DNA of 64,000 nt, from contig JBBREH010000002.1 of the NCBI GenBank assembly GCA_038203095.1, forward strand, positions 5,904-69,903, written 5' to 3'. How positions within the stretch are numbered: position 1 is the stretch's first letter; every line of letters begins with the position of its first letter. Below are positions 1,276 to 62,746 of this stretch, piece by piece. A model generated the notes under the pieces. The model saw nothing but the letters and a program-made list of their open reading frames with translations, did no database searches and had not been told where the DNA came from. A program made the position numbers and the translations under genes. This DNA is from Candidatus Doudnabacteria bacterium (lineage in GTDB: Bacteria > Patescibacteriota > Doudnabacteria > UBA920).

Positions 1276-4200
1276 TTAATTTACATCTATCATTAAAATT
1301 TCAGGCACGTCTCTAAGCTCGGCTAACAACTCATTCGAAACCGCAACCAAACTTTGGGTTTTAATTTTTTTTGCATTTTGACCTGTACCGACTGACAAGT
1401 AAACCTGGGCGTTGCCTTTATTTTTTTCTAAAATTTCCTTAATTTTATTTAAGGCATTCATATTAGAAAGACCTGCCATATGCAAAACTACCTGCTTACT
1501 TTTGCCCATTTCGTTCAAAGCCATACTGTATAGATCATCACTAGGCAACTCTTTTATATCATCTGCTATTAATTTAAATTCTTCATCTTTGTCGGACAAA
1601 CGGCCAATAACCTGGACTATGCAATCATCAGTTAAAAACTGCACGACTTTTTCCATAATTTTAGGAAAAACCAAAACCTCAATATTGCCCCCCAAATCTT
1701 CAAGAGTAAAAAACGCCATCGGATCATTTTTTCGAGTTAAAGTTTTTTTAAGCCGTGAAATAATACCTCCCATAATCACCTTACCACCCAGCTCAGTAAG
1801 TGAGAGACTTTTTACGCTCCGCAATGTAGATAAAACATTTTTATAAACATCCAAGGGGTGCGCTGAGACATACATACCTAAATGCTCCTTCTCCCAGAGC
1901 AGCTTTTCCTCTTTGGTCGCGGGCACTGAAGGTCTTAATTTTAATTTGCCCATTTTTAAAGACGAACCGAATAAGGAATTTTGCCCTTCAACGTCCTGCT
2001 TTAAGTTTTCACGAACAAATTCCAAAACTTCTTCTGTGTTGGCAAGTAATTGGCCGCGTTCACCAAACGCGTCCAGCGCCCCGCCCTTGACCAAGGCTTC
2101 CCAGGAACGTTTACTAAAGTTTTTGGTGTAAGAACGGATAAGAAAATCTTCGAGAGAAGAATAAGGCTGAGAAGTGCGGGGTAAATGGTGATTCTCTGCG
2201 CTATCAATCCTCAACACTTCACCCTCAACCCTCGCTTGAATTATGCTCGCAATAACATCACTCCCCAAATTCTTAATTGCGTTTAACCCAAACCGAATAG
2301 TCTTTTCATCCACAACCGTAAAATTTCCTAAGCTTTCATTCACATCCGGAGGCAAAACCGCAATCCCAAGCTGATCACATTCTTCCACAGCTTCATAAAT
2401 CTTATCCTCATCACCACTTTCCGCAGTCATTAGCGCAGCCATAAATTCAACAGGGAAATTAGCCTTCATATATGCGGTCTGATAGCCTACGGCCGAATAA
2501 GAGGCTGAATGTGCCTTGTTAAAACCATAAGCTGCGAAAGGTTCAATCCAGGTCCAAATTTGCTCGGCTTTTGAATGCGACCATTTGGAAGTATCCATAC
2601 AGCCCTGCACAAACTTAATTTTTTGCTTAGCCATTTCTTCAGGATTTTTTTTACCTACGGCCTTTCTAAACTTGTCGACCTCTTCCCAGCTATAGCCGGC
2701 CAAATCGTGGGCAATTGTTAAAAGATCGTCCTGATAAACTAAAATTCCATACGTTCGGTGAAGAATTTTTTCCAAAGCAGGGTCCAAATATTTAATTAAT
2801 TTTTTGTCGTGCTTTCGCGCAATAAACTCAGGAATAAACTGCATAGGGCCCGGCCGGTAAAGAGCTATCATAGCCATAATGTCAAAAATGTTTGCAGGCT
2901 TAAGTTCCCTAAGATAACGTGTAATCCCCGACGAACCGAGCTGGAAAACACCAAATGTAAGACCATCAGAAAGTAATTTAAAAGTTTTAGGGTCAGGATG
3001 AGGAAGGTTGTAGATATTAATGGATACATTATGGCGCTTTTGAACCAGGTTCACCGCCGATTCCAAAATTGACAAATTACGAATTCCCAGCAAATCTAAT
3101 TTTACCACTCCAATTGCTTTACTGCTCGCGCCGGCGTCCAAAGAATACATATCGTACTGGGTAATAATTCGCTCACCGTCCGGCTCTTTTTGCAACGGCA
3201 TATAGTCAGTCAGGGGAGTCGGAGTTATTACAATACCCGCGGCGTGCATACTCGCATGACGCGCGCAACCTTCCAATTTTTTTGCAATTTCCAATATTCG
3301 ATGAGTCTCAGGGTCACGGTCGTAAATTTCTTTAAGTTCCGGGGATTTTTCCAGAGCCTTTTCAAGCGTCATTAAAAAACCCTGCTTGCCTATGGGTATC
3401 ATTTTAGCAATTTGGTCGCATTTGCTATAAGGGACGGCCATAGCGCGACCAACATCGCGCACGGCGGCGCGTGCGGCCATGGTTCCAAAAGTTATAATTT
3501 GCGCTACCTTGTCCTTTCCATACTTATCAGTAATATAATTAATAACTTCGTCTCGACGGTTGTCGGCAATATCCAAGTCAATATCCGGCGGTGTCGGACG
3601 ATGCATTGTCAAAAAACGCTCAAATGATAACTCATAATATAGAGGATCAACATTAGTAATGCCGAGAATTCGGCCAACAATACTGCCGGCGGCACTTCCC
3701 CTAGTGTTAGTAATTGCACCAATATTATGCGCTCCCGAAACCACGTCTGCCACCATTAAAAAATAGGTGTCGAAGCCTTTTTTTATAATAATATTAAGTT
3801 CATATTCAATTCGCTGTCTAATTTCTTCGGGAATTATTAACTCCTGTTTATCGTTGCCGACAACTGTATTTGAGCCACGCGGCCTTTCACTAGCTATGAT
3901 TCTTTCGTCTTCCCGCTGAACAGTTGTCAATGACGGAACCCCTTGCAATGTGTATGAAGCCAATTTGCCATACATTAACAAAGCTTTTTCGTAAACCATC
4001 TTTCTTAAATAGTTCTCCGAGGTCATACCCTCAGGAATTTCCACCTGGGGAAAATAGCGTTGATCAATTAAAATTTCTAAATTACACATCTCTGCCACTT
4101 TTTGCGTATTTTGCACAGCCTCAGGCAAATCAAAAAATAGCTCCATCATTTTTTGCGGGGAATGAAGTGACAAATCGCAACTGCGCATATCCAAACGGTC

Positions 4201-4929
4201 TGTGTCGCCTACAATCCTACCCGTGCCGATGCAAACCATAACATCTTGTGCCTCGGCGTCTTCGGGATAAATATAGTGGCAATCCGCCGTCGCGACGACT
4301 GACAAATTATTAGCCTTGGCCAATTCAACCAAGCGATGATTGAGTTCTGTTTGGCGCTGATGATCCTCCTGCTGTGAAGGTTTAATATTCCTTTGTATTT
4401 CAATAAATAATTTTTCCGCGGTAAAAATTTCCAAATACTTTTCCAAAACTTTTTGCGCCTCACCTTGAGATTTATTCATTAACGCGCGGGCAATTTCTCC
4501 TCGCTGACAACCGGACAGGCAAATTAACCCTTGAGCATGTTTTGATAACAACTCTAAATCAATTCTGGGTTTGTAATAAAAGCCGTCCAGGTGGGCTTTG
4601 GTGGTAAGCATTATCAAATTTTTATAACCTTCGTCATTTTGCGCCAATAGCGTTAAATGATGGTAATCGGCGTCAATTTTGCCTTCTTTTTCTCCCATAC
4701 CACGAGGCGCAACATAGGCCTCCAGGCCGATAATCGGTTTAATGCCGGCTTCTTTGCATGTGTTGTAAAATTCCACGGCGCCATACATTACACCGTGATC
4801 GGTAATTGCCAGACTCTCCATACCCAATTCTTTGGCACGCTCAACCAGCGGCTCTATTTTAGACAAGCCGTCAAGTAATGAAAAATGCGAATGGCAATGC
4901 AAATGGGTGAAATTCATAACAATTAACAA
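1276..4929 (-). CDS. dnaE: DNA polymerase III alpha subunit
   Basis: 1217 aa. N-terminal PHP domain (HLHCHSHFSLLDG...AITDHG), LGITNVDPL and polymerase core motifs; uninterrupted. Confidence 0.9.
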   Translation of the reverse strand: MLIVMNFTHLHCHSHFSLLDGLSKIEPLVERAKELGMESLAITDHGVMYGAVEFYNTCKEAGIKPIIGLEAYVAPRGMGEKEGKIDADYHHLTLLAQNDEGYKNLIMLTTKAHLDGFYYKPRIDLELLSKHAQGLICLSGCQRGEIARALMNKSQGEAQKVLEKYLEIFTAEKLFIEIQRNIKPSQQEDHQRQTELNHRLVELAKANNLSVVATADCHYIYPEDAEAQDVMVCIGTGRIVGDTDRLDMRSCDLSLHSPQKMMELFFDLPEAVQNTQKVAEMCNLEILIDQRYFPQVEIPEGMTSENYLRKMVYEKALLMYGKLASYTLQGVPSLTTVQREDERIIASERPRGSNTVVGNDKQELIIPEEIRQRIEYELNIIIKKGFDTYFLMVADVVSGAHNIGAITNTRGSAAGSIVGRILGITNVDPLYYELSFERFLTMHRPTPPDIDLDIADNRRDEVINYITDKYGKDKVAQIITFGTMAARAAVRDVGRAMAVPYSKCDQIAKMIPIGKQGFLMTLEKALEKSPELKEIYDRDPETHRILEIAKKLEGCARHASMHAAGIVITPTPLTDYMPLQKEPDGERIITQYDMYSLDAGASSKAIGVVKLDLLGIRNLSILESAVNLVQKRHNVSINIYNLPHPDPKTFKLLSDGLTFGVFQLGSSGITRYLRELKPANIFDIMAMIALYRPGPMQFIPEFIARKHDKKLIKYLDPALEKILHRTYGILVYQDDLLTIAHDLAGYSWEEVDKFRKAVGKKNPEEMAKQKIKFVQGCMDTSKWSHSKAEQIWTWIEPFAAYGFNKAHSASYSAVGYQTAYMKANFPVEFMAALMTAESGDEDKIYEAVEECDQLGIAVLPPDVNESLGNFTVVDEKTIRFGLNAIKNLGSDVIASIIQARVEGEVLRIDSAENHHLPRTSQPYSSLEDFLIRSYTKNFSKRSWEALVKGGALDAFGERGQLLANTEEVLEFVRENLKQDVEGQNSLFGSSLKMGKLKLRPSVPATKEEKLLWEKEHLGMYVSAHPLDVYKNVLSTLRSVKSLSLTELGGKVIMGGIISRLKKTLTRKNDPMAFFTLEDLGGNIEVLVFPKIMEKVVQFLTDDCIVQVIGRLSDKDEEFKLIADDIKELPSDDLYSMALNEMGKSKQVVLHMAGLSNMNALNKIKEILEKNKGNAQVYLSVGTGQNAKKIKTQSLVAVSNELLAELRDVPEILMIDVN

Positions 4930-5093
4930 TTTACGATTAACAATTTCCGCTAAGGGGTCCGCCTTTGGCGGAAACTTATTCCTAAGTTAATCGTCAATTG
5001 TCAATCGTTAATCGTTCTAGCCTATCATACCAAAATTCTACCAACTTTGCTATAATTAAAATATATAAAATCAACAATAAAAATAATCCATTT

Positions 5094-5966
5094 ATGTCTT
5101 TATTCAAAGATCAAGTCAAGCTGGGCTTTCAAGAAGCCGAACTTGAAACCCAAAAAACTTTAGCCGGGCTGCCACCTCTTATTAGGTGGCTTGCGATAAT
5201 TTTTACCATCATGATTATTCCGGTTTACTATTCTGCAAAAATTATTTCCCGAAAAATCTTAACAAGTAGATACTCCCAAGGGGCCCTTTACGCCAAACCA
5301 AGTTTTACTAACCCAAAAAAACTAATTATTTCCAATGTGAACGTTGTGACCACCGGTAGCGGAAGTTTTGCCGCCGGAGTCAAAATCAAAAATCCAAATT
5401 TAGATTTGTCTTTAGAAAACCTGCCCTTTTCATTTAAATTTTATAATGAAAAAAAACAACTAGTTTATACTTATGAAGATAAGTTATTTTTACTGCCCGA
5501 CGAGGAAAAATATGTCACCGTTCCGACGTTCACAGCAATAGAAAACGTTTCCTTTGCAAACTTTGAAATACCAAATGAGCTTCCCTGGCAAAAAAAATTA
5601 ACAATTCCCAAAGTCCAGTTTTCTACTTCCGTACCCAACTCATACCAGCAAAGTTCGCCGGAGGCGTTTATAGTTGAAGGGGACTTTACTAACGACAGTC
5701 CTTATACTTTAAAAAGTGTTCGTTTGACATTTATTATTTTTGGCGCACAAGACAAAATTGTTGGCATAAGCCAGCGGGATGAGTTCACTGTAAGCCCTTT
5801 TGAAAGACGAGCGTACAAACAACTTTGGCCTTTAATTTCTGCTCCGGACATAAGCCGGGTTGAGGTCAGGGCCGAAACCAATACCTTAAATTCCAACAAT
5901 CTGGTTATTAATTCAAGCCCTTCACCAGCTTCCGATTTAAGCCGACCGAGGAATAAAAATAGATAA
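5094..5966 (+). CDS. Hypothetical membrane-anchored protein (one N-terminal TM, then a beta-rich extracytoplasmic part)
   Basis: Long ORF. The internal Met at 5094 (MSLFKDQ...) lies after an AT-rich putative promoter; no recognisable family. Confidence 0.4.
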   Translation: MSLFKDQVKLGFQEAELETQKTLAGLPPLIRWLAIIFTIMIIPVYYSAKIISRKILTSRYSQGALYAKPSFTNPKKLIISNVNVVTTGSGSFAAGVKIKNPNLDLSLENLPFSFKFYNEKKQLVYTYEDKLFLLPDEEKYVTVPTFTAIENVSFANFEIPNELPWQKKLTIPKVQFSTSVPNSYQQSSPEAFIVEGDFTNDSPYTLKSVRLTFIIFGAQDKIVGISQRDEFTVSPFERRAYKQLWPLISAPDISRVEVRAETNTLNSNNLVINSSPSPASDLSRPRNKNR

Positions 5967-6028
5967 TTCATCTTTATTGTTTTATTTTAGACAAATACGC
6001 GTAAAAATAAGCAACAACGGGAAAAACA

Positions 6029-7129
6029 ATGCACCATCTTCTTAACCGATTCAAATATTTTGATCTGCCACTGCTGGCGGCCACATTACTGCTGGCCTTG
6101 GCCGGTCTCGCAATTTTGTATGCTACCACGCTTTCGGACAATTCCACAACGGTTTTTAACCGACAGTTAATTTTTTTAGCTTTCGGTTTAATTATTTTTA
6201 TATTTTTAAGTCTTTATGACTATCATGCTCTGACCAAGTCAAACCGAATTATTTATATTGTTCTAATTTGTTTGCTTGTCTATCTTCTAGTTTTTGCCTC
6301 GCCTGTTAAAGGGGGCAAGCGCTGGATAGACTTTTCATTTTTTCGTTTTCAGCCCGCTGAGTTTGCCAAAGTAGTAATTATTTTAGGTCTGGCGCGGTTG
6401 CTCCATTTAGCCCGAGGTCAAATTAATTCATGGCGCACTATTACTTGGTCATTTTTTTATGCAATTTTGCCGGCAGCTTTGGTGCTGTTTGAACCCGACT
6501 TGGGCTCGTCTCTTATTATTTTTAGCTTGTGGGTTGGCATTATCATGCTTAGCTCAATAAAAAAGAAGTTTTTGGCGGTATTATTTTTTATTGCGCTATT
6601 TGGCTTGGGAGTCGGCTGGCAATTCGTTTTAAAAGATTTTCAAAAAGATAGGATTAGAGTTTTTTTAAACCCAGATTTAGATCCAAAAGGCAGGGGATAC
6701 AACGTTAAGCAGGCGACAATTGCCGTGGGAGCCGGTGAACTAGTTGGAAGAGGTTTGGGCAAAGGTGTGCAGAGCCAACACAAATTCTTACCTGAACGAC
6801 AAACCGACTTTATTTTTGCCGCCTCTAGCGAAGAAATTGGCTTTTTAGGTTCTGTTAGCCTATTAATGCTTTACTTTTTTTTACTTTGGCGAATATCAAA
6901 GATCATAAAAAAAACCAAGGATGATTTAGGCATGTATCTAGCCGGTGGGGCATTCTTTTTTTTCTTTTTCCATGTCGTAATTAATGTAGGCATGAATATT
7001 GGGCTTTTGCCGGTAACCGGCATTCCTCTGCCCTTTGTCAGCGCCGGTGGCAGTTCCTTAATTGCCAGCTTAATTCTGCTGGGAATTGTACAAAATATTG
7101 CTGTTGAGTCCAAAGCTTTGCGCTTTTAA
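6029..7129 (+). CDS. SEDS-family peptidoglycan glycosyltransferase (FtsW/RodA/SpoVE)
   Basis: About 10 TM helices and the conserved SEDS signatures QPAEFAKV, DFIFA, EEIGFLG and GLLPVTGIPLPFVSAGGSSL. Confidence 0.8.
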   Translation: MHHLLNRFKYFDLPLLAATLLLALAGLAILYATTLSDNSTTVFNRQLIFLAFGLIIFIFLSLYDYHALTKSNRIIYIVLICLLVYLLVFASPVKGGKRWIDFSFFRFQPAEFAKVVIILGLARLLHLARGQINSWRTITWSFFYAILPAALVLFEPDLGSSLIIFSLWVGIIMLSSIKKKFLAVLFFIALFGLGVGWQFVLKDFQKDRIRVFLNPDLDPKGRGYNVKQATIAVGAGELVGRGLGKGVQSQHKFLPERQTDFIFAASSEEIGFLGSVSLLMLYFFLLWRISKIIKKTKDDLGMYLAGGAFFFFFFHVVINVGMNIGLLPVTGIPLPFVSAGGSSLIASLILLGIVQNIAVESKALRF

Positions 7130-7151
7130 TTACATCTGGTATACTTAAATT

Positions 7152-7550
7152 ATGAAAAATAATATACCCTGCGGAGCGGGGTCCGGTTCTGCCGGAAAAT
7201 CTTTTGACTTTAAAAAAATTATTGAATGGCTGGGCTTTGTTTTAAAGTGTCCGATTTGTGGGCATAAGTATAAACTGGAGCAGACTAAAGTTTTAGAGAG
7301 TGAACAGAACGAAATCTATAACGAAGCACGGATTTTAATCCACTCCGACTGCGTCAAATGCAAAAGCTCGGTAATGTTCAATGTTGAAATCCGCGGACCG
7401 GAAGTCTTTAGCGTTGGTATGGTTACCGACCTAACCGGCAAAGACAGCTCCAAATTCAACAAACTCGGACCCATTAGCTCCAACGAAATTATCGGCCTAC
7501 ACCAGGAGCTTAAAAACTTTAAGGGCGATTTTGTTGCCGCGTTTACATAA
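7152..7550 (+). CDS. Hypothetical small protein with a CxxC...CxxC zinc-ribbon-like motif
   Basis: CPICGH ... CVKCKSS pattern; no family recognised. Confidence 0.35.
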   Translation: MKNNIPCGAGSGSAGKSFDFKKIIEWLGFVLKCPICGHKYKLEQTKVLESEQNEIYNEARILIHSDCVKCKSSVMFNVEIRGPEVFSVGMVTDLTGKDSSKFNKLGPISSNEIIGLHQELKNFKGDFVAAFT

Positions 7551-7572
7551 TTAAACAACAAGAAACAAAAAT

Positions 7573-8196
7573 ATGGGGAGAAAAATTGTATATGGGTTTT
7601 TGGGCTTAATAATTTTCTTAATTATTGGCGCATTAGTAGCATATGGCATTAGTACAATCATACCGTTTCCAGCACCTATTTACTTAATTATTTTAGGGAT
7701 TATAGTCATTTTAGGAGTTTGGCTTAGTATAAAATTTGCAAGTAAGAGAAATCAAGCTGAGCTACAAGCAGATCCGACTACTAGAGGTCATTTTTTAGCA
7801 GAAACCCCGAAATCACTTAGGTATTATTTTTTAGTCGTTGGTATATACCAATTGACTGTGGCATTCAGACTCCAGCCAAATCTTACAGCTATAATCACCA
7901 GTCTTATCGCTTTGATATTTGGAATTATCCAAATCTATATTGCCATAAAATTTGACTCTGTGATAAAAGACAAAATTAAATTCATTATAAATTTCCTTTG
8001 GATTCAGCTTGTTTATTCTATTTTGTTGTTTATAATGTTGTTCTTTGTATTAAAATTTAACACCTTCTTTGCTTGGGCACTAATGGGAGAAGTCGCTATT
8101 ACTTTGTATTTAATTTCAAACTCAAAACGCATACACAATAATCTTTTAAGTCAGCAAGTTTCTGTGCCGACACCTCCATTAAGCCCGAACTTATAG
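7573..8196 (+). CDS. Hypothetical polytopic membrane protein
   Basis: Several hydrophobic helices; no family recognised. Confidence 0.35.
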   Translation: MGRKIVYGFLGLIIFLIIGALVAYGISTIIPFPAPIYLIILGIIVILGVWLSIKFASKRNQAELQADPTTRGHFLAETPKSLRYYFLVVGIYQLTVAFRLQPNLTAIITSLIALIFGIIQIYIAIKFDSVIKDKIKFIINFLWIQLVYSILLFIMLFFVLKFNTFFAWALMGEVAITLYLISNSKRIHNNLLSQQVSVPTPPLSPNL

Positions 8197-8616
8197 TTTA
8201 CCACTTATGTAGGCTTTCAGCTTCCTGTCCGCTCAATCCGTTCAGCAACTTGACCAGACAATATCTAAACTGCCATTTAAGCGTCTCTGAAAGCCTTATA
8301 ATAATCGTAGCGACCATATAAACGCCTAAAAAATGTTAGATTTACGCCGGATATAAAGCTGAACAGATAAGCGGACACTGGAGTCGAACGACATAACCAA
8401 CCTGCCTGGACAAAATCCGGGCTTTTTGATACAATTATCAGGATTTATATATAAGGTTTTACTAGAGTAGGTAAGTAGACTGTCATTCCCAGGAGCCATA
8501 TTTGAAGGCTTCATTAGACAACAAAGCAATCTATCAACTATAAAGATAGGATCGCTTCTTTTGCCACAGCGATGACAAATTGAAAGCCGATGGTGTAAAA
8601 TCAAAAGGAAACGAGA

Positions 8617-9339
8617 ATGGATAAGTTACAGATTAAAGCCGAAGTTAGAGATGTAAAAAAATCTAACCCTCAAAAGCTACGCCAAGCAGGCTCACTGCCG
8701 GCTGTACTTTACGGCCACAAAGTGCAAAACGCGGCGCTCACGGTTAACGCCAGAGAGTTTGATAAAATTTTAAAAAAAGCGGGTGAAAGTACCATTGTTG
8801 AACTAATGACCAACGATGGTAAAACTCATCCGGTTTTAATTCACGACGTCCAAATCCATTATTTAACCAGCGTCCCGACCCACGTTGACTTTTACGAGGT
8901 TAGCTTAACGGAAAAACTTAAAGCCAAAGTTGTACTGGAATTTTCCGGTGAATCACAGGCGGTTAAGGCTATGGGCGGAGTTTTGGTTAAGATCTTAAGT
9001 GAAATTGAAGTAGAATGTTTACCAACCGACTTACCTCACAATATTACCGTTAATTTAGAAAGTTTAAAAACTTTAACAGACAGTATTCACATACGCGATA
9101 TAATAGCTCCTGCCAAAGTTAAAATTTTAACCGGTGCCGACGAAATGATAGTTAAAGTTCAGCCACCTCGTGACGTAGAGGCGGAATTGTCCGCTCCGGT
9201 TGTGGAAGACATTAGCAAAGTTGAGGGTGCAGCCGAAATTAAGCCCGATGCCGCTGCCGGCTCAACTTCTGAAAAACCTGAAAAATCCGCCAAGGGCGGA
9301 TCCGCCTCCGGCGGAAAGGATAAGGAAGACAAAAAATAG
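8617..9339 (+). CDS. rplY: 50S ribosomal protein L25 / general stress protein Ctc (long form with an acidic/Lys C-terminal tail)
   Basis: MDKLQIKAEVR...GSLPAVLYG...HYLTSVPTHVDFYEV is the L25/Ctc fold; RBS AAAGGAAACGAG upstream. Confidence 0.85.
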   Translation: MDKLQIKAEVRDVKKSNPQKLRQAGSLPAVLYGHKVQNAALTVNAREFDKILKKAGESTIVELMTNDGKTHPVLIHDVQIHYLTSVPTHVDFYEVSLTEKLKAKVVLEFSGESQAVKAMGGVLVKILSEIEVECLPTDLPHNITVNLESLKTLTDSIHIRDIIAPAKVKILTGADEMIVKVQPPRDVEAELSAPVVEDISKVEGAAEIKPDAAAGSTSEKPEKSAKGGSASGGKDKEDKK

Positions 9340-9408
9340 CCCATAATAAATCCCTCCCTCACCGGGGAGGGATTTTGATAATACGAATACTTCTGTTATT
9401 ATGAAATT

Positions 9409-10314
9409 ATGGAAATGAAACCTTATTTAAAATTTAACCGGTCGCAAATCTGGGTTCTTGCAGTTGCAATTTTAGTGCTATTAGTAGGCGGACTTTATTT
9501 TTATCATATTTGCCAAAATAACCCAAGAATAAATGACAAAGTTGAAATTGACGGGAGAGCCTATCAAAAGCTTGTCACCCATAAGGACCAAGAGCCTTTA
9601 CCTCCCGCAAAAAATGGTAGGAATGTAAAGGTAGTAATTTTAATGTACCACCATGTTGGCGACCCGCCGCCCAAAGCCAGCCGTATGCGAAAAGACTTAA
9701 CCGTTTCCACGGCTGATTTCTCGGATCAGGCGAAGTTACTAAAAATGGAAGGATATACCAGCATTAAACTTGGAGATATTTTAGCTTACAGCCAAGGCAA
9801 ATTTTCTATGCCCAAAAATCCGGTTGTTTTTACTTTTGATGACGGCTATGATGATGTTTTTGTAAATGCCCTGCCAATTTTGAAACAGAATGGGTTTGTT
9901 GGCAGCTTAGCAATTATTACCAGGTACCCAAAAAGCGTAATGGGTGATAACTTTTACGCTTCCTGGGATGAAATTGCCAAAGCGTATCAAGAGGGCAACG
10001 AAATTGTTTCGCACACCCAAGACCACTTTGACGGAAAAAATCCCAAATACTCACAAGATTTTATTTTTAATAATTTGACAGGCTCTGTTCAAGATATTAA
10101 AGACCACTTAGGCTATACTCCCAACATTTTAATATACCCATACGGACACTATACTACCAATTATATCGACATAGCCAAAAAGGTAGGCTTTGTAATGGGT
10201 GTAACCATTCATGACGGCAAAACAGTGAGTTTAGATAACTTAATGGAGATTCCACGTGTCAGAGTGCATGGCGGAGAAACTTTGGGGCAGTTTAGAGCAC
10301 GGGCCATGGAGTAA
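9409..10314 (+). CDS. Polysaccharide deacetylase family protein (NodB homology domain) with N-terminal TM anchor
   Basis: VVFTFDDGYDDVF...ALPILK...G..GSLAII and the His motifs of NodB-type deacetylases. Confidence 0.7.
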   Translation: MEMKPYLKFNRSQIWVLAVAILVLLVGGLYFYHICQNNPRINDKVEIDGRAYQKLVTHKDQEPLPPAKNGRNVKVVILMYHHVGDPPPKASRMRKDLTVSTADFSDQAKLLKMEGYTSIKLGDILAYSQGKFSMPKNPVVFTFDDGYDDVFVNALPILKQNGFVGSLAIITRYPKSVMGDNFYASWDEIAKAYQEGNEIVSHTQDHFDGKNPKYSQDFIFNNLTGSVQDIKDHLGYTPNILIYPYGHYTTNYIDIAKKVGFVMGVTIHDGKTVSLDNLMEIPRVRVHGGETLGQFRARAME

Positions 10315-11272
10315 TTTCCGCGAAGCGCCACAAATTATTTAAATCCTTATAAAATTTTACGTCTGCCTTTGGCAGATATTTTTTTATCAGCTCATGCAAT
10401 TCCGCCTTTTGACGAGGGTCAAACTCCAAATATATTAATTTTGGCAGATGTTTTCGCTCTGCAATTTGTTGTAATAAACGTCTAATTTCATACAGGCCGC
10501 TTTCCTTTGTAAATAGGGCCTGTTTTGGCTCAAATTTTAAACCGATTGTTGCGGCTGATGTGTTATTTTTCCATTGATTCCAGCCATAAGGAAGATTGGC
10601 AATAATCATATCAAAATCTCCTTTAATTTTTTGCAGCAAATCTGATTTTATAAACTCTAATCTCCCATACACTGGAGTATGGGAGATAGGGGTTAAAATA
10701 TTTTTTGCATTTTGCTTTGCCACTTTAAGGGCGGATGGCGAAATATCAGATGCAGTCACTTTAATCTTTAATCTTAAATCTTTAATCTTTTTCGTAAGCG
10801 ATATTGCAATACACCCGCTCCCGGTGCCAAGGTCGAGGATTTTGATGGACAAACCGCGGAGCATCCTTCCCTTAAAAAGGGAAGGTGTACCGCTTTGGCG
10901 GGACGGAAGGGTTGGAGTCTTAATCGAAACTTCTCCAACCACCTCCCCGCCCTGCGGGCGGTACTCCTCCTTAAAAAGGAGGAGAGACTGCACAACTCGC
11001 TCCACCAGCAACTCCGTCTCGGGGCGAGGGATTAACACATTTTTATTAACCATAAACCTTAGCCCATAAAAATCCCTATACCCCAAAATATACGCCACCG
11101 GCTCACCTCGAAGTCGCCGCTTTGCCATTAGTGTTAATCTGTTGACTTGTATCCGTGTTAATCTGTTTTCCCCATTCATATACAAAAATTCCTTGGATTT
11201 TCCAAGGACATCTGCCAGTAACAACTCGATTTCTATCGAGGAATATTTTTTTAAAATTTTATTTACCGTCAT
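10292..11272 (-). CDS. prmC: Release-factor glutamine N5-methyltransferase PrmC/HemK. Carries in-frame repeat insertions (GC-rich hairpin block and an AATCTTAAATC repeat).
   Basis: LDLGTGSGCIAISL SAM-binding motif and N(L)PY motif (IIANLPYG). Sits next to prfA. About 45 extra residues (LLFKEEYRPQGGEVVGEVSIKTPTLPSRQSGTPSLFKGRMLRG) are encoded by a GC-rich palindromic block. Confidence 0.8.
   Translation of the reverse strand: MTVNKILKKYSSIEIELLLADVLGKSKEFLYMNGENRLTRIQVNRLTLMAKRRLRGEPVAYILGYRDFYGLRFMVNKNVLIPRPETELLVERVVQSLLLFKEEYRPQGGEVVGEVSIKTPTLPSRQSGTPSLFKGRMLRGLSIKILDLGTGSGCIAISLTKKIKDLRLKIKVTASDISPSALKVAKQNAKNILTPISHTPVYGRLEFIKSDLLQKIKGDFDMIIANLPYGWNQWKNNTSAATIGLKFEPKQALFTKESGLYEIRRLLQQIAERKHLPKLIYLEFDPRQKAELHELIKKYLPKADVKFYKDLNNLWRFAEITPWPVL
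10861..11035. repeat. GC-rich palindromic (RPE-like) insertion block inside the prmC coding sequence; in-frame with no stop
   Basis: Three perfect hairpins in an otherwise AT-rich gene: cttccctt-aaaa-agggaag, ccgccc-tgc-gggcgg and ctcctcc-ttaaaaa-ggaggag. Both antisense frames are also open, which gives the spurious ORFs 10596..11069 and 10774..10995. Confidence 0.6.
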
Positions 11273-23226: not shown

Positions 23227-23321
23227 AAATATTTCGATGTATTGTTATAAAATTATAACTACGAATTCGGAAAACGAAAAGAATGTTAGAGTTGCAAAAG
23301 TTGGCAACAAATACTATAAAT

Positions 23322-23481
23322 AGGACTTACGCTTTTGAGCCAATTTCGAGGAATTTTGTGAGGATGTTTGGAAACGTAGCCAGCTACGGCGACAAATACC
23401 GCAGCAAAATAACGAAGAAATTGGCCAAAGCTGCTTTGAACCGGCGGAGCCGGATTCAAAAGCGGCAAGAGCGTAAGTCCT
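23322..23481 (+). repeat. Family A element copy 1 (~160 nt, TIR AGGACTTACGC/GCGTAAGTCCT)
   Basis: About 80% identical over the 5' 110 nt to 42352..42513, with different 3' hairpins. The ORF 23283..23483 over it is spurious. Confidence 0.7.
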
Positions 23482-23557
23482 AACGTCAATATTTTGGAAT
23501 GTGTTTTTATTTTTGCTGATGTTGAGCTAACCTGAGACGAATGATATAATTACCATT

Positions 23558-29375: not shown

Positions 29376-29540
29376 ATTAGACTTGTAGCGAATTAATTTT
29401 TTAAATCAAGATTTGATATTTTAGTCAAAATCCCAATTAAAAATTTTGATGTTTAACTTTAGTTAAGCGGAAAAATTATTAACAAGAGTTTGGTAAAAGA
29501 GCAATTTTTGGACAAAAATTAATTCACTACAAGGCTATTA
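29376..29540 (+). mobile_element. Family B MITE copy 1 (~165 bp, TIR ATTAGACTTGTAGCGAATTAATTTTTT)
   Basis: Shares the core AAAATTTTGATGTTTAAC(T/C)T(T/A)AGTTAAGCGGAAAAATT with copies at 53683..53843 and 49997..50158. Flanked on both sides by inverted GAATACGGAGAGG / CCTCTCCGTAT units. Confidence 0.7.
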
Positions 29541-31317: not shown

Positions 31318-31501
31318 TTTTGAAGCGAAATTGCAGGATTTCGAGACGATTGGCAGAAATAAATTTTGTCGTGCCAAAGGTACATCCGCCTTTGGCGGAA
31401 CGTTTAACCTGAGTTAAGCGGATAAATTTTTTCGGGCAAGCGGCCGAAAGGCTGTAATTGCAGCCAAAAGGATTTTTAAAATGGGTTCTGAGTAGAGTTT
31501 T

Positions 31502-36394: not shown

Positions 36395-36535
36395 TCTCCT
36401 GACGCCCAGGAAAATCTTAAATCTTTCCGCCAAAGGCGGATCTCAGCCAAAGACTGACTAGCCTCTGGCTGGCGCAATCGCATCAAGCGGAAAATCTTAA
36501 ATCCTTAATCTTTCCGCCAAAGGCGGATCCGCCCC
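36395..36535 (+). repeat. Two direct copies of GGAAAATCTTAAATC(CTTAAT)CTTTCCGCCAAAGGCGGATC (AATCTTAAATC motif plus CCGCCAAAGGCGG palindrome) separated by a 53-nt palindromic spacer
   Basis: Read directly. The same two motifs recur at 841-925, 10755-10800 (inside prmC), 4957-4975, 31383-31401 and 54752-54770. Confidence 0.6.
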
Positions 36536-36560
36536 AGGCGGAAAAACTTTAACTAAATTT

Positions 36561-42324: not shown

Positions 42325-42351
42325 CTCGTTTTATCTGCTAATATTACTTTT

Positions 42352-42513
42352 AGGACTTACGCCTTTGGTCGAGTACGAGGCATTTTGCGAGGATTTTTGG
42401 AGACGTAGTTTGACTACGGCGACAAAAACCGCAGCAAAATAACGAAGTAATCGGCCAAACCCCTTGTGGGTTTCATCAATATTTTAAATATTTAGATGAA
42501 AGGCGTAAGTCCT
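42352..42513 (+). repeat. Family A element copy 2
   Basis: TIR AGGACTTACGCC/GGCGTAAGTCCT; core conserved with copy 1; 3' hairpin ttcatc-aatattttaaatatt-tagatgaa differs from copy 1. Confidence 0.7.
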
Positions 42514-42609
42514 GACTTTAATAAATCCCGTTAGAAATTCTTTGAATTATTAACCGGGATAAAATTTTAAAGTAGGCAGATATAAAAAAAGTATTAAACT
42601 AACTTATTA

Positions 42610-49991: not shown

Positions 49992-49996
49992 TATAA

Positions 49997-50158
49997 TAGA
50001 CTTGTTGCTTAATAATTTTTCGCCCAAAATGTGTCCTTTCGCCAAAACCTTGTTAAAAATTTTTTCGCTTAACTTAGGTTAAACATCAAAATTTTTAGCT
50101 GCGGCCTTGTCAGAAATAACACATTTTAGATCAAAAAAGTTATTTAACAACAAGTCTA
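49997..50158 (-). mobile_element. Family B MITE copy 3 (inverted orientation)
   Basis: The reverse complement aligns end-to-end with 53683..53843 (TIR TAGACTTGTTGTTAAATAACTTTTTT). Read-through of its TIR gives the spurious MSEITHFRSKKLFNNKS N-terminus of ORF 50107. Confidence 0.7.
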
Positions 50159-50166
50159 ATTTATTC

Positions 50167-52251: not shown

Positions 52252-52544
52252 TGGCTTCAAGCTAGTTGGCAATTTCTTAGGCGCTAACTTTTCCCTGTGG
52301 ATATGTCAGATTATTATCTAATTCTACAAACTCAATAAAAAATAAAATCTCTTATAAATAAGCCAATAATCATACTGATACAACAATTCCCATATTTTTT
52401 GCCAAATTAGCAACAATTAAGGCAAAAAACACTTGCTTTACTTGGGTTTTTTAGCTAAGATTTAAACGTTAACAAATAATCATACACCCCCACTCCAAGC
52501 CCTCCTTTTTAGATGGTGAGGAAATGGGGTAGGGAGACAAAAAA

Positions 52545-52817
52545 ATGACAAAGTCAGAGACATTACAAGCCCTAGCTGATAAGCTGGGAAAGACTCGCAA
52601 AGAAGCAGGCGAAATTTTGGATGCAATTATTGAATTAGCCGTTGCCGAGACCAAAAAGAACGGTGAATTTACTTTCCCGGGCTTAGGCAAACTCCAAAAG
52701 AAGCACAGAGATGCCAGAATGGGCAGAAACCCGGCCACCGGCGCTTCCATTCAAATCCCGGCTAAGACAGTTTTGAAGTTCCGCGTTGCCAAACAGGCCA
52801 AAGACGCAATACTTTAA
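52545..52817 (+). CDS. hup: DNA-binding protein HU
   Basis: GEFTFPGLGKLQKKHRDARMGRNPATGASIQIPAKTVLKFR is the HU/IHF arm. Confidence 0.85.
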   Translation: MTKSETLQALADKLGKTRKEAGEILDAIIELAVAETKKNGEFTFPGLGKLQKKHRDARMGRNPATGASIQIPAKTVLKFRVAKQAKDAIL

Positions 52818-53027
52818 GTTACAAGTAGAAAGTTTAAAGTAAAATGGTAAAACCATCTCGCATAATGCGAGGTGGTTTTAATTTTATTGATTTTGTGGTA
52901 TAATAATAGAAATCTTTATGGAGAATAAAGTGTGTTTATATACAATCATTTCTCTAAAATATACTACTCCTTGTTTTTAGAATGTCGACGACGTTCTCTA
53001 AACGGGTAAATTAAAACTATTGCATAA

Positions 53028-53545: not shown

Positions 53546-53682
53546 AGTACGGACTGAATACGGATATACGGAGGGAGTACTTGAGCATTTTGAATTTCGT
53601 ATATCCGTATGCTCCCTCTCGGTACTTCCGTAAAGAATCTTAAGGTGGTCGATCTTAAGACAGGTAACAAAGATAAAATAAT

Positions 53683-53908: not shown

Positions 53909-54589
53909 ATGGATTACCCAACCTATCAGGTTATGGTAGTTAGCGCGTTACAAGATTTGTTTTTTAAAACAGTTAGCTACCTCCCAAATTTAATTGCGGC
54001 AATTATTGTTGTAATTATTGGCTGGCTTTTAGCAATATTTTTAAGCTCACTGGTAAGTAAGGTTTTAAGTACAATTAAAATTGACCACCTAGCAAACCAA
54101 TTGGGATTACAAAACCTCTCGGAAAAAACCGGCAAAAAACTTAGTATTTCCACTTTTTGTGGCTGGCTAGTAAAATGGTTTTTCTTTTTGGGCAGCTTTA
54201 TTGCCGCGGCTGACATTTTAAATCTACCGGGAGTCTCAAGCTTTCTTTACCAGGATGTTTTGGGCTACGCCGGGCACGTAATTGTCGCGGTCGCAATTTT
54301 GCTTCTGGGCCTCCTGGCAGCCGACTTTTTCTCGGGTTTAATTTCAACAACGGTAAAAGCCAGCGGACTCAACACCGGACATTCTTTGGGCGCTGTTGCC
54401 AAGTGGTCTATAATTGTCTTTGCCGTTATTTCAGCGCTGTCTCAATTGCAAATTGCCTCGGCGTTTTTGCAGGACTTGTTCAGGGCCGTTGTTGCTATGT
54501 TGGCTATTGCCGGCGGTCTGGCTTTTGGCCTCGGCGGACAGGCTCACGCCAAAAAAGTTTTGGACGGACTAGAAGACAATTTTAAGTGA
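53909..54589 (+). CDS. Membrane protein with conserved TM-helix repeats (CmpX/MscS-N-terminal-like); hypothetical
   Basis: Repeated amphipathic helices ...LxNLxxxIxxxVxAAxILLLG... Confidence 0.35.
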   Translation: MDYPTYQVMVVSALQDLFFKTVSYLPNLIAAIIVVIIGWLLAIFLSSLVSKVLSTIKIDHLANQLGLQNLSEKTGKKLSISTFCGWLVKWFFFLGSFIAAADILNLPGVSSFLYQDVLGYAGHVIVAVAILLLGLLAADFFSGLISTTVKASGLNTGHSLGAVAKWSIIVFAVISALSQLQIASAFLQDLFRAVVAMLAIAGGLAFGLGGQAHAKKVLDGLEDNFK

Positions 54590-61219: not shown

Positions 61220-62746
61220 ATGATCAACCCAATAAAAACCGTCCGTACACGCTTTGCGCCCAGCCCCACCGGCTTTGTGCACATTGGTAGTTTGCGCACT
61301 GCGCTATTTAGTTTTTTATATGCCCGCAAAAATCATGGAGCGCACATTTTACGTATAGAGGACACCGACCAAAATAGGCTGGTAGAAGGCGCGGCGGAAA
61401 ATTTAGTTAAAGTCATGCGTGAGATGGGCATAGAATTTGACGAGGGCTACTACTTAGCCGATGACGGATCACTAAAAGAAAGAGGAAATTTTGGCCCCTA
61501 TTTACAATCAAAGCGTTTGGATTTATACCAAAAACACGCGACGGAACTCGTAGAAAAGGGGAGTGCATATTATTGCTTTTGCAGCCAGGAAAGACTGGAT
61601 GAACTTCGAAAAGAACAAACGGCTTTAAAAAAGCCGGCAATGTATGACAGACACTGCAAAAATTTATCCGAAGATGAAATTAAATTGAAACTGATTGAAA
61701 TTAAGGGGCAGAAAAAAAACCCCGTAGTGCGCTTTGCCATTCCACAGGAAGGTCAAACCACAATCCACGATTTAATTTACGGTGATATTACTTATGAAAA
61801 TAAAAACCTAGACGACCAGGTGATTTTAAAATCTGACGGTTTCCCCACCTACCATCTGGCTGTGGTCGTTGACGACCACTATATGCAAATTAGCCACGTT
61901 ATTCGCGGTGAAGAATGGATACCTTCTACGCCCAAACATTTGCTAATTTACAAAGCTTTAGGCTGGGAGCCGACGCAGTTTGCCCACCTGCCTCTAATAT
62001 TAAACCCGGATAAATCCAAACTTTCCAAGCGCCAGGGCGACGTGGCGGTGGAAGATTTTTTAAAGCACGGGTATTTAAAAGAGGGCTTGTTAAATTTTGT
62101 GGCTTTTTTGGGCTGGAACCCTAAAACAGACCAAGAGCTTTTTTCGCTTACAGATTTAATAGAGCAATTCGATTTTAGCAAAGTCAATAAAGCCGGCGCC
62201 GTATTTGACGACAACAAGCTGGACTGGTTTAACTCACAATATATTAAAAAACTGACGCCGACCGATTTAGCAAACCTGCTCAAGCCTTATTGGCAGCAAT
62301 CGGGAATTAGTTTTCAAAATTTTTCCGATGAATATCTTGCCACTGTTGCCAAACTTGAACAGGAACGCTTAAAAAAACTTTCCGAGATAGGGGAGAGGAC
62401 TGCTTACTTTTTTAAAGCTCCTGATTATGATGCTAAATTACTCATTTGGAAGAAATCAGACGCTGGGGATGCAAAACAAAAATTGTCTGAGCTTGCAAAT
62501 TTACTATCAACTCTGACTGATGATAAATTTTCCAACTCCAATCTAGAAACGGAAATCAAAAAATTTATTGCGGAAAAAAAATATGACAACGGCTCCGTTC
62601 TTTGGCCGCTAAGAACCGCGCTCACCGGCCAAGAAAAAAGCCCCGGCCCTTTCGAAGTTTGCGCCACGTTGGCTTTAGGCTTGGGCAAAAAAGAGGTCCT
62701 AAAACGTCTTGAGACAGCGGTTTCAAAATTGACAGTTGATGTGTAG
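61220..62746 (+). CDS. gltX: Glutamate--tRNA ligase
   Basis: RFAPSPTGFVHIGSLRTALF (HIGH), KLSKR (KMSKS), anticodon-binding C-terminus. Confidence 0.9.
   Translation: MINPIKTVRTRFAPSPTGFVHIGSLRTALFSFLYARKNHGAHILRIEDTDQNRLVEGAAENLVKVMREMGIEFDEGYYLADDGSLKERGNFGPYLQSKRLDLYQKHATELVEKGSAYYCFCSQERLDELRKEQTALKKPAMYDRHCKNLSEDEIKLKLIEIKGQKKNPVVRFAIPQEGQTTIHDLIYGDITYENKNLDDQVILKSDGFPTYHLAVVVDDHYMQISHVIRGEEWIPSTPKHLLIYKALGWEPTQFAHLPLILNPDKSKLSKRQGDVAVEDFLKHGYLKEGLLNFVAFLGWNPKTDQELFSLTDLIEQFDFSKVNKAGAVFDDNKLDWFNSQYIKKLTPTDLANLLKPYWQQSGISFQNFSDEYLATVAKLEQERLKKLSEIGERTAYFFKAPDYDAKLLIWKKSDAGDAKQKLSELANLLSTLTDDKFSNSNLETEIKKFIAEKKYDNGSVLWPLRTALTGQEKSPGPFEVCATLALGLGKKEVLKRLETAVSKLTVDV

What the first reader, a model, noticed from the sequence alone, without database searches (positions are those of the whole stretch)
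23322..23481. Family A: two copies of a ~160-nt TIR-bounded element with conserved 5' core, compensatory internal pairing and divergent 3' hairpins (candidate structured RNA or MITE)
Copies at 23322-23481 and 42352-42513 both begin AGGACTTACGC(C) and end (G)GCGTAAGTCCT, giving 11-12 bp perfect terminal inverted repeats with TA-like flanks.
- The first ~110 nt are about 80% identical, including the core CTACGGCGACAAA(T/A)ACCGCAGCAAAATAACGAAG and a CGTAG-loop-CTACG hairpin whose loop differs between copies.
- A second long-range helix shows covariation: copy 1 GCCAATTTC/GAAATTGGC versus copy 2 GGTCGAGTAC/GTAATCGGCC.
- The 3' ~45 nt are unrelated in sequence, but each folds into a hairpin.
This is structure conserved with sequence divergence.

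Both copies are intergenic and sit upstream of + strand genes (the ECF sigma factor and gpmI).
Basis: seen in the sequence. Interest (0 to 1): 0.75.

Follow-up and report, generated by a model that had tools for sequence, protein, structure and literature searches.

The report
Miniature transposon carrying a conserved hairpin
The two ~160-base repeats are copies of a small non-coding jumping element (a MITE) of candidate-phyla-radiation bacteria, and what is unusual is an inner hairpin whose base pairing is kept on one strand.

Summary
The true ends lie one base further out: 23321-23482 and 42351-42514.

**What it is.** Both copies belong to a mobile-element family.
- Their 13-nt ends, YAGGACTTACGC(A), match those of the IS701-family insertion sequence ISPlag1.
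- In 119 elements with these ends, from many phyla and with unrelated interiors, an exact 5-bp target duplication flanks 77 (chance about 1).
- Copy 2 has such a duplication (ACTTT/ACTTT). Copy 1 has none.
- The host is a Doudnabacteria-like bacterium.

**Family A.** About 60 relatives with the same core turned up. Named genomes are Doudnabacteria and Saccharibacteria; most copies are from unnamed metagenome contigs.
- All are intergenic, and their orientation relative to neighbouring genes is random.
- No promoter, terminator or Rfam match lies inside either window copy.
- The link to the sigma-factor gene and gpmI is therefore incidental.

- 24 of 30 pairs of the 90-nt hairpin show double changes, and 96% of cells are paired.
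- G·T outnumbers A·C 47 to 7.
- The 3' hairpin shows no such strand bias.

**Verdict.** This is a new MITE family of a known kind, carrying a strand-specific folded module of unknown role. RNA is the more likely form and single-stranded DNA the alternative. The two unrelated 3' ends are two recurrent modules.

The parts
23321..23482 (+). Family-A MITE, copy 1 (162 nt): TIR, hairpin 1, type-1 3' hairpin, TIR. No target-site duplication (ATAAA versus ACGTC).
   Evidence: (covariance model R1, 111.6 bits).
23321..23333 (+). Left terminal inverted repeat of copy 1, TAGGACTTACGCT.
   Evidence: The consensus YAGGACTTACGCA comes from 119 elements. ISPlag1 carries the same terminus.
23339..23425 (+). 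Hairpin 1 of copy 1. It has four helices separated by three GA-type internal loops (5' GAGG; 3' ACGGC / CCGCAG / AACGAAG).
23430..23466 (+). 3' hairpin of copy 1 (type-1 module). Its apex CCGGCGGAGCCGG is the reverse complement of the CCGGCTCCGCCGG found in several relatives (for example L129 and L162).
23470..23482 (+). Right terminal inverted repeat of copy 1, AGCGTAAGTCCTA.
42346..42350 (.). Left copy of the 5-bp target-site duplication (ACTTT) of copy 2.
42351..42514 (+). Family-A MITE, copy 2 (164 nt): TIR, hairpin 1, type-2 3' module, TIR.
   Evidence: (R1, 125.8 bits). Two short-read contigs of the same genome break inside it.
42351..42363 (+). Left terminal inverted repeat of copy 2, TAGGACTTACGCC.
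42367..42456 (+). Hairpin 1 of copy 2.
42460..42501 (+). Type-2 3' module of copy 2: a small CCCC/GGG(G) hairpin plus the AT-rich hairpin TTTCATC...GATGAAA. The same module occurs in L078 and L168, and related versions in L034, L131, L144, L145 and L179.
42502..42514 (+). Right terminal inverted repeat of copy 2, GGCGTAAGTCCTG.
42515..42519 (.). Right copy of the 5-bp target-site duplication (ACTTT) of copy 2.

Best explanation
Both repeats are copies of a non-autonomous DNA transposon (a MITE).

**How it moves.**
- The element has no gene of its own.
- An IS701-family DDE transposase of the ISPlag1 group, supplied in trans, recognises the 13-nt terminal inverted repeats YAGGACTTACGC(A).
- It inserts the element at AT-rich intergenic sites and duplicates 5 bp of target.
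- The same termini and the same 5-bp duplication bound hundreds of otherwise unrelated short elements in many phyla.
- The window's family ('family A') is found in named Doudnabacteria and Saccharibacteria genomes and in many metagenome contigs that carry no taxonomy.

**How it is built.**
- Each element consists of the two TIRs, an obligatory ~90-nt hairpin (hairpin 1), and an optional, exchangeable 3' hairpin module.
- Two 3' module types exist, and the window holds one of each. That explains the unrelated 3' ends.

**Hairpin 1.**
- It is kept by selection as a fold of the + strand only.
- Its helices change by compensatory substitutions.
- Three similar purine-rich internal loops (5'-GA-3' opposite 5'-G(N)A-3', next to G-C pairs, 11-12 nt apart) stay nearly constant.

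**Shown versus inferred.**
- Shown: the TIR match, the target duplication, copy multiplicity, the covariation and the strand asymmetry.
- Inferred: that the fold matters for the element's own spread or persistence.
- Inferred: that the fold acts as RNA (my estimate about 0.4) rather than as single-stranded DNA (about 0.3).

The position upstream of the sigma-factor gene and gpmI is incidental.

**What the confidence covers.** The figure of 0.8 is for 'MITE of this superfamily with a selected, strand-specific hairpin'. The MITE part alone is about 0.95.
For: **TIRs and target duplication**
Hosts include Cyanobacteria, Poribacteria, Chloroflexota, Patescibacteria, Thiotrichaceae, Legionellales, Hymenobacter and Desantisbacteria, and the interiors are unrelated.
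- Position -1 is always Y and position +1 is R in all but one element. Position 12 is A in 108 of 120.
- An exact 5-bp duplication lies just outside the ends in 77 of 119 elements, and 15 more have one mismatch. Shuffled flank pairs give 1.1.
- Within family A, 15 of 48 are exact and 8 more have one mismatch. Copy 2 has ACTTT/ACTTT.

**Autonomous partner**
- A published description gives ISPlag1 as 1,306 bp, IS701 group, with TIR CAGGACTTACGCAAGCACGCTATATATAG (PMC2464740).
- I recovered it in a Planktothrix plasmid (L187 10029-11334). It has these ends and a 337-aa 'IS701-like element ISPlag1 family transposase', which scores 408 bits against NF049921.
- More than 7,000 homologues exist, including one 77% identical in Tatlockia.
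- 1,531-bp autonomous copies have the same termini, and 4 of 9 have a 5-bp duplication.

**Family A**
- 62 metagenome loci matched the core pattern, about 55 of them true copies.
- A covariance model finds further copies, up to 3 within 4 kb.
- Short forms made of TIRs plus hairpin 1 only exist, as do forms with extra inserted hairpins.

**Structure**
- 96.3% of cells are paired, against 80.1% after shuffling and 29-50% after sliding the partners.
- 24 of 30 pairs have double changes. The covariation score is 0.396 against 0.119, reached by 0 of 500 shuffles.
- An independent MAFFT plus RNAalifold analysis finds double changes in 14 of 20 predicted pairs.

**Strand specificity**
- G·T outnumbers A·C 47 to 7, spread over 18 versus 6 different pairs.
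- The + strand fold is the more stable one in 43 of 45 hairpin-1 modules with RNA parameters and 45 of 45 with DNA parameters.
- The 3' hairpin serves as an internal control and shows no bias: 15 of 26, and G·U counts of 11 versus 12.

**Host and copy number**
- The closest named relatives of gpmI are Candidatus Doudnabacteria, at 61-71% identity.
- Two short-read contigs of the same genome end inside copy 2, as expected for a repeat.
Against: - No ISPlag1-like transposase is encoded in the window or in any fetched MITE locus (tblastn; motif scan). A partner in this host is therefore assumed, not shown.
- Copy 1 lacks a target duplication.
- Only 15 of 48 family-A copies have an exact duplication.
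- No clean empty site was obtained. Related contigs are too diverged in the spacers.
- Against the RNA reading: no promoter-like or terminator-like site lies inside either copy, and orientation relative to neighbouring genes is random (upstream 21 same / 27 opposite; downstream 16 / 29).
- Against the single-stranded DNA reading: IS4/IS701-type DDE enzymes act on double-stranded ends (established knowledge).
- Part of the loop conservation is imposed by my search pattern (GAGGAT, ACCGCAG and TAACGAAG were required).
- The model-based alignment leans towards the structure.
- Cells are not phylogenetically independent.
Confidence: 0.8

Rival explanations
1. Hairpin 1 is a cis-acting single-stranded DNA structure. 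The + strand folds when exposed, for example on the lagging-strand template or after DNA uptake. The fold helps a very short element bring its two ends together, or helps the mobilising machinery recognise it.
For: - The element is mobile DNA, so conservation across many copies is most simply explained by a requirement for spread.
- The asymmetry also holds with DNA energy parameters, 45 of 45.
- G·T is the mildest DNA mismatch, and tandem G·A pairs are stable in DNA (established knowledge).
- No promoter lies inside the copies, and orientation relative to genes is random.
- Precedents for strand-specific DNA folds in mobile elements are integron attC sites and IS200/IS605 ends (established knowledge).
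Against: - IS4/IS701-type DDE transposases use double-stranded ends.
- Other MITE families with the same TIRs lack this hairpin, so the enzyme does not generally need it.
- If gene direction is taken as a proxy for replication direction, there is no orientation bias.
Confidence: 0.3
2. The element is an ordinary MITE and the hairpin has no function. Its apparent covariation reflects shared ancestry of subfamilies plus hairpin-templated repair that keeps DNA palindromes symmetrical.
For: - MITEs in general fold stably (PMC10969869).
- The 3' hairpin behaves like a symmetrical DNA palindrome.
- The apex of copy 1's 3' hairpin is inverted relative to several relatives, which is a DNA-level palindrome event.
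- Related sequences can beat shuffle controls without any structure (caveat stated by the tool).
Against: - Palindrome homogenisation should erase mismatches. Instead, three asymmetric loops (GAGG opposite CGNA-type strings) persist in about 57 distinct copies.
- Six different Watson-Crick combinations occur at two adjacent pairs of the lower stem.
- The G·T: A·C ratio is 47:7 in hairpin 1 but 11:12 in the neighbouring hairpin.
- The slide control, which keeps relatedness, drops pairing to 29-50%.
Confidence: 0.12
3. It is a host small-RNA gene or cis-regulatory leader (riboswitch-like) for the downstream sigma-factor and gpmI genes, and the inverted termini simply form its closing stem.
For: - Strong folding and covariation.
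- Both window copies lie upstream of + strand genes.
Against: - The termini are those of a transposase-bearing IS, and 5-bp duplications flank them.
- Neighbouring genes differ from locus to locus, and orientation is random.
- The promoter-like site for the sigma-factor gene lies downstream of copy 1.
- There is no Rfam match, even at E = 10.
- The related contigs L154/L122 carry a copy in a spacer that is empty in the window.
Confidence: 0.03

Closest known systems
ISPlag1 (IS701 family) and its short derivatives in Planktothrix agardhii
   Same: - The 12-13 terminal bases are identical (CAGGACTTACGCA).
- Autonomous relatives make a 5-bp duplication.
- Short non-coding derivatives exist: 197-bp remnants (PMC2464740) and 810-bp internally deleted copies in L187.
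   Different: - Beyond the first ~12 nt, family A shares nothing with ISPlag1. It is a 'TIR-only' MITE, not a deletion derivative.
- The host is Patescibacteria, not Cyanobacteria.
- Family A carries hairpin 1.
Nezha MITEs of Anabaena/Nostoc (Zhou et al. 2008), linked to ISNpu3
   Same: - Size 130-170 bp, with TIRs and direct repeats shared with an IS, and very stable predicted folds (review PMC3184786).
- Many Nostocales elements in my scan (AGGACTTACGCAACTGGCACA...) share their termini with the 1,531-bp autonomous copies L188-L195.
- These may be Nezha-like, but that is my inference.
   Different: - The Nezha paper is not held, so its TIR sequence could not be compared.
- The interiors of the Nostocales elements are unrelated to family A.
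bcr1 repeat of the Bacillus cereus group
   Same: About 155 bp, flanked by 5-bp direct repeats, mobile-element behaviour, and compensatory base changes that keep a two-hairpin fold at the RNA level. It is known to be transcribed (PMC3184786).
   Different: - Unrelated sequence and host.
- bcr1 has no identified transposase partner.
- Transcription of family A is untested.
Integron attC sites and IS200/IS605 subterminal hairpins (mechanistic analogues only)
   Same: Mobile-DNA signals that are conserved as a strand-specific fold with fixed unpaired bases rather than as sequence (established knowledge).
   Different: - Those are recognised as single-stranded DNA by tyrosine or HUH enzymes, and they have no TIRs or 5-bp duplications.
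- Family A has the hallmarks of a DDE transposon.

Membership tests
MITE (generic) | Short (<500 bp), with no coding capacity. | tested here: met
   The elements are 162 and 164 nt. The only ORFs of 60 aa or more across copy 1 (23283..23483 on + and 23286..23489 on -) have no counterpart in copy 2.
MITE (generic) | Terminal inverted repeats. | tested here: met
   13-nt TIRs. Copy 1 is perfect. In copy 2, 12 of 13 positions are complementary.
MITE (generic) | Target-site duplication of fixed length. | tested here: met
   The duplication is 5 bp. It is exact in 77 of 119 elements across the superfamily (control 1.1) and in 15 of 48 family-A copies. Copy 2 has it and copy 1 does not.
MITE (generic) | Multiple dispersed copies, present or absent at orthologous sites. 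| tested here: inconclusive
   - There are 2 copies in 64 kb, up to 3 in 4 kb in L137, and contig breaks inside copy 2.
- The related contigs L154/L122 carry a copy in a spacer that is only 62 nt and TIR-free in the window.
- The spacers are too diverged for a base-exact empty site.
IS701 family / ISPlag1-group derivative | Termini identical to those of a transposase-bearing element. | tested here: met
   L187 10029-11334 has CAGGACTTACGCA ... TGCGTAAGTCCTG and a 337-aa IS701 transposase. L188-L195 show the same.
IS701 family / ISPlag1-group derivative | Same duplication length as the autonomous element. | tested here: met
   4 of 9 autonomous copies have an exact 5-bp duplication. Several of the others share single flanks with other copies, which suggests exchange between copies or assembly chimeras (my inference).
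IS701 family / ISPlag1-group derivative | A matching transposase in the same genome or lineage. | not testable with these tools
   - None is present in the window or in any fetched locus.
- The rest of the genome is not available.
- The homologue list carries too little taxonomy to decide.
Nezha (Anabaena/Nostoc MITE) | TIR and direct repeat as published for Nezha/ISNpu3. | not testable with these tools
   The paper is not held. Only a review's description is available.
Known structured RNA family (Rfam 15) | A match to a curated covariance model. | tested here: not met
   The window gives no hit at gathering score except 4 tRNAs. Nothing meaningful appears at E up to 10 on either copy.
Independent non-coding RNA gene | Covarying secondary structure. 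| tested here: met
Independent non-coding RNA gene | Own promoter or terminator, or a fixed orientation relative to neighbours. | tested here: not met
   The scan covers sigma-70-type signals only, and promoters of candidate-phyla-radiation (CPR) bacteria are poorly known.
Independent non-coding RNA gene | A detectable transcript. | not testable with these tools
   No expression data can be reached.

The most novel reading that the evidence does not exclude
Hairpin 1 is a real functional single-stranded ligand carried by a transposon. It is a ~90-nt rod with three in-phase tandem-GA-type loops, spaced 11-12 nt and therefore about one turn of an A-form helix apart. These loops would dock a protein, either the transposase or a host factor. 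The fold would be required for the spread or retention of this MITE family in candidate-phyla-radiation bacteria. That would make it a new class of cis-acting transposon RNA (or strand-specific DNA fold) linked to a DDE transposon.
Probability: 0.35. Interest if true: 0.65.

Novelty: new member of a known kind. Interest (0 to 1): 0.4.

Why it matters
- **Annotation.** These elements should be masked as mobile repeats, not called as regulatory leaders or small-RNA genes of the sigma-factor or gpmI loci. They also break short-read assemblies of candidate-phyla-radiation genomes.
- **Mobile-element biology.**
  - One 13-nt terminus with a 5-bp duplication is shared by many unrelated short elements across at least eight bacterial groups, alongside transposases of 64-100% identity among the 120 listed homologues, one of them in Legionellaceae.
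  - This points to a very successful, horizontally spreading IS that has seeded MITE families many times.
  - I found no description of MITEs in Patescibacteria in the searchable library.
- **If the hairpin is functional.** It would be a tractable case of a structured nucleic acid selected at the level of a selfish element. It comes with a built-in control, the neighbouring hairpin that lacks strand bias.

Tried and rejected
- **TA duplication / IS630-type element.** This was my first guess from copy 1's flanks. I rejected it because the outer base is Y/R and varies independently on the two sides, and the duplication is 5 bp.
- **Cyanobacterial host.** Rejected. The closest gpmI relatives are Doudnabacteria.
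- **Rfam.** No family matches.
- **Plasmid collection.** BLAST with copy 1 and with a Nostoc-type element found nothing. Only the 30-nt ISPlag1 terminus gave hits.
- **Viral contigs.** Zero hits for both patterns.
- **Autonomous parent inside the 183 fetched loci.** None was found by TIR pairs with ORFs, by solitary TIRs, by the transposase motif, or by tblastn. ORFs that lay between TIR pairs did not look like ISPlag1-type transposases (not run against family libraries), and tblastn with the ISPlag1 protein hit none of them.
- **A decayed third copy at 53711-53805** (R1 model, 21 bits). Rejected. It lies inside a copy of a different repeat family.
- **Base-exact empty-site comparison** with syntenic contigs. 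The spacers are too diverged.
- **Internal promoter or terminator.** None found.
- **Cruciform-only explanation.** Disfavoured, because a cruciform needs both strands to fold and predicts no excess of G·T over A·C.

Full report
**1. The observation**

- AGGACTTACGC occurs four times in the window, only at the four ends.
- The first 108-109 nt are 84% identical (E = 8e-28). The last ~45 nt are unrelated.
- As single strands, both copies fold far better than shuffles: -77.5 and -69.8 kcal/mol, z about -9.
- The fold is a three-way junction: a closing stem made by the termini, a ~90-nt hairpin ('hairpin 1'), and a 3' hairpin.
- The reverse strands fold less well, at -63.3 and -60.8 kcal/mol.
- Rfam has no match.

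**2. The termini belong to a cross-phylum transposon superfamily**

I scanned one genome per species for AGGACTTACGC-N(120-150)-GCGTAAGTCCT.
- Hosts were Nostocales and other cyanobacteria, Poribacteria, Chloroflexota, Doudnabacteria, Saccharibacteria, Thiotrichaceae, Legionellales, Methylobacter, Hymenobacter and Desantisbacteria.
- About 2 matches were expected by chance (my estimate from the 22 specified bases and the collection's size).
- The interiors are unrelated to one another.

The base outside each end is Y on the left and R on the right in all but one element, and the two vary independently. The inverted repeat is therefore YAGGACTTACGCA.

Reading the flanks showed a 5-bp direct repeat just beyond the ends.
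- It is exact in 77 of 119 elements, with one mismatch in 15 more.
- Shuffled pairs of flanks give 1.1.
- This is the signature of DDE transposition.

In the window, copy 2 has ACTTT on both sides (42346-42350 and 42515-42519). Copy 1 has none.

**3. The autonomous partner family**

A full-text search for the terminus found one relevant paper, PMC2464740.
- It describes ISPlag1 of Planktothrix: 1,306 bp, IS701 group, one 337-aa ORF.
- It gives the terminal repeat as CAGGACTTACGCAAGCACGCTATATATAG, and reports 197-bp remnants.

I recovered the element in plasmid p3 of strain NIVA-CYA126/8.
- It spans L187 10029-11334, which is 1,306 bp, with these ends.
- It is annotated 'IS701-like element ISPlag1 family transposase'.
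- The protein scores 408 bits on NCBIfam NF049921.
- The same plasmid carries 810-bp internally deleted copies.

The protein has more than 7,000 homologues. The 120 listed are 64-100% identical, and one in Tatlockia (Legionellaceae) is 77% identical.

Eight insertions of a 1,531-bp relative in metagenome contigs, plus one of a 1,271-bp relative, have the same termini. Four of these nine have an exact 5-bp duplication. Several of the others share single flanks with other copies, which suggests exchange between copies or assembly chimeras.

No such transposase is encoded in the window or in any MITE locus I fetched. A partner in this host is therefore inferred.

**4. Family A and its host**

The window's gpmI is closest to proteins named Candidatus Doudnabacteria, at 61-71% identity.

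In the genome scan the family-A core occurred only in three Doudnabacteria, one Saccharibacteria and one unclassified genome. A weak relative occurred in a Legionellales genome.

A metagenome scan for GAGGATNT-N(20-50)-ACCGCAG-N(4-7)-TAACGAAG gave 62 loci.
- About 55 are true copies with recognisable TIRs.
- Seven are chance hits in other sequence.

A covariance model built from 47 copies (R1) found further copies that do not satisfy the pattern. One 4-kb contig holds three.

The elements are modular.
- Short forms consist of the TIRs plus hairpin 1 only (~120 nt).
- Two main 3' module types exist.
- Some forms carry extra inserted hairpins.
- The window holds one copy of each 3' type, and each type recurs in other genomes. 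For example, copy 2 matches L078 and L168, and copy 1 matches L133 and L125. This explains the 'unrelated' 3' ends.

Other points:
- Copy 2 is closer to a copy in another Doudnabacteria genome (88% over 137 nt, L034) than to copy 1.
- Family-A duplications are exact in 15 of 48 copies, with one mismatch in 8 more.
- Two short-read contigs of the same genome stop inside copy 2.
- Contigs syntenic with window 3460-10205 carry a short-form copy in a spacer that is 62 nt and TIR-free in the window. Divergence prevents a base-exact comparison.

**5. The hairpin really covaries**

On a plain MAFFT alignment, RNAalifold finds double changes in 14 of 20 predicted pairs.

On the model-based alignment (61 distinct rows, 30 pairs):

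| Measure | Observed | Control |
|---|---|---|
| Cells paired | 96.3% | 80.1% shuffled; 29-50% with partners slid by 1-3 columns |
| Pairs with changes on both sides | 24 of 30 | 14.2 shuffled |
| Covariation score | 0.396 | 0.119 shuffled |

None of 500 shuffles reaches any of the five measures.

Examples seen directly in the alignment:
- Two adjacent lower-stem pairs occur as TT/AA, TA/TA, TG/CA, AG/CT, CA/TG and CG/CG.
- The middle helix switches between ATTTTG/CAAAAT, ATTTTC/GAAAAT, AAAAC/GTTTT and AAAATG/CATTTT.

The unpaired strings stay nearly fixed.
- CGAGGCA was not part of my search pattern and is at least 75% conserved at every position.
- GAGGAT, ACCGCAG and AACGAAG were required by the pattern, so their constancy is partly imposed.

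The three internal loops are alike. Each has 5'-GA-3' opposite 5'-G(N)A-3', next to G-C pairs. On the 5' arm they are spaced 12 and 11 nt apart.

**6. The fold is strand-specific**

- In 57 distinct strong rows, G·T pairs outnumber A·C pairs 47 to 7, spread over 18 versus 6 different pairs.
- A few of the G·T cells sit at positions where my pattern fixed a T. Removing those, and the two loop-adjacent pairs, still leaves about 29 to 7 (my recount).
- The + strand fold is the more stable one in 43 of 45 hairpin-1 modules and 41 of 45 whole elements with RNA parameters. With DNA parameters the figures are 45 of 45 and 43 of 45.
- The type-1 3' hairpin is an internal control and shows no bias. The + strand is more stable in 15 of 26, and G·U counts are 11 versus 12.
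- A cruciform, or a general mutation bias, would not give this contrast.

**7. What the element is not**

- Orientation relative to flanking ORFs is random: upstream 21 same / 27 opposite, downstream 16 / 29.
- The neighbours differ from locus to locus.
- No sigma-70-like promoter or intrinsic terminator lies inside either window copy.
- The best promoter-like site for the sigma-factor gene lies downstream of copy 1.
- So the element is not a leader or riboswitch of the adjacent genes.

**8. Interpretation**

Shown:
- It is a MITE family of the ISPlag1/IS701 terminus superfamily.
- It has an obligatory hairpin that covaries and is strand-specific.

Inferred:
- Copies of a non-autonomous element decay after insertion. 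Conservation across about 60 copies in many genomes therefore most likely reflects a requirement for the element's own spread or retention.
- A fold limited to one strand implies RNA or strand-specific single-stranded DNA.
- I lean to RNA (about 0.4), for three reasons: purine-rich tandem-GA-type loops, loop spacing of about one A-form turn, and the bcr1 precedent. bcr1 is a 155-bp repeat with 5-bp direct repeats that is transcribed and shows compensatory changes (PMC3184786).
- Single-stranded DNA (about 0.3) is favoured by the absence of a promoter and the random orientation.
- A function-less palindrome (about 0.12) is disfavoured by the persistent asymmetric loops and the G·T excess.

**9. 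Novelty**

- MITEs, their stable folds, and even compensatory changes in such repeats are known.
- This is a new family in a lineage where I found no MITE description.
- Two further points are worth noting: the breadth of the terminus superfamily, and the strand-specific hairpin with its built-in control.

Noticed in passing
window 29376-29540 (+), 49991-50165 (-), 53678-53846 (+): A second MITE-like family. Three AT-rich copies of ~165 nt are 75-85% identical, with termini about TAGACTTGTTG...CAACAAGTCTA. Weak hits of the family-A model fall inside them. Their interiors contain ACCGCAG- and GGCGAAAGAAC-like strings.
   Followed up: partly
window 4958-4993, 9286-9326, 10357-10397, 31370-31420, 36443-36544, 54742-54773: Short GC-rich palindromes of the form TCCGCC(W3)GGCGGA, sometimes in tandem, scattered across the window. 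They look like terminators or REP-like units.
   Followed up: no
loci L001-L120 (genome-contig scan): The same 13-nt terminus and 5-bp duplication bound short elements with unrelated interiors in at least eight bacterial groups. Some of these elements are nested or in tandem (L016, L048).
   Followed up: partly
window 23443-23455: The apex of copy 1's 3' hairpin (CCGGCGGAGCCGG) is the exact reverse complement of the apex in several relatives (CCGGCTCCGCCGG, for example L129 and L162). This looks like a palindrome-tip inversion.
   Followed up: partly
L121 (ends at window 42377) and L184 (starts near window 42484): Two short-read contigs of the same genome, both from run SRR19962014, break inside copy 2. 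This is consistent with a multi-copy repeat.
   Followed up: yes
L137 1573-1680 (-), 2559-2670 (+), 3273-3384 (+): Three family-A copies lie within about 2 kb of one contig, in mixed orientation. That contig is syntenic with window 52542-54540.
   Followed up: partly
L154 about 2379-2502 versus window 5967-6028: A related genome (68-77% identity over window 3460-10205) has a short-form family-A copy between the orthologues of ORFs 4998..5966 and 6029..7129. The window's spacer there is 62 nt and contains no TIR.
   Followed up: partly
L187 17235-18046 and 39622-40433: 810-bp internally deleted ISPlag1 copies in a Planktothrix plasmid retain only the first 124 and last 49 codons of the transposase. 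They are intermediates on the way from IS to MITE. The left flank of the full copy (AATTAGA) equals the right flank of one deleted copy, which suggests recombination between copies.
   Followed up: partly
L047 1347-1488 (Legionellales MAG): An element with the same termini and a different interior still carries the loop-1 strings CGAGGCA ... TAACGAAG, with AACGAAG three times. It scores 34.6 bits on the family-A model.
   Followed up: no
window 60134-60187 and 62740-62793: 54-nt inverted repeats, 83% complementary, bracket a 2.5-kb segment that contains ORF 61220..62746.
   Followed up: no
window 53464-53516 and 54602-54654: Two copies (81% identical) of a 53-nt hairpin-forming repeat flank ORF 53909..54589.
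   Followed up: no
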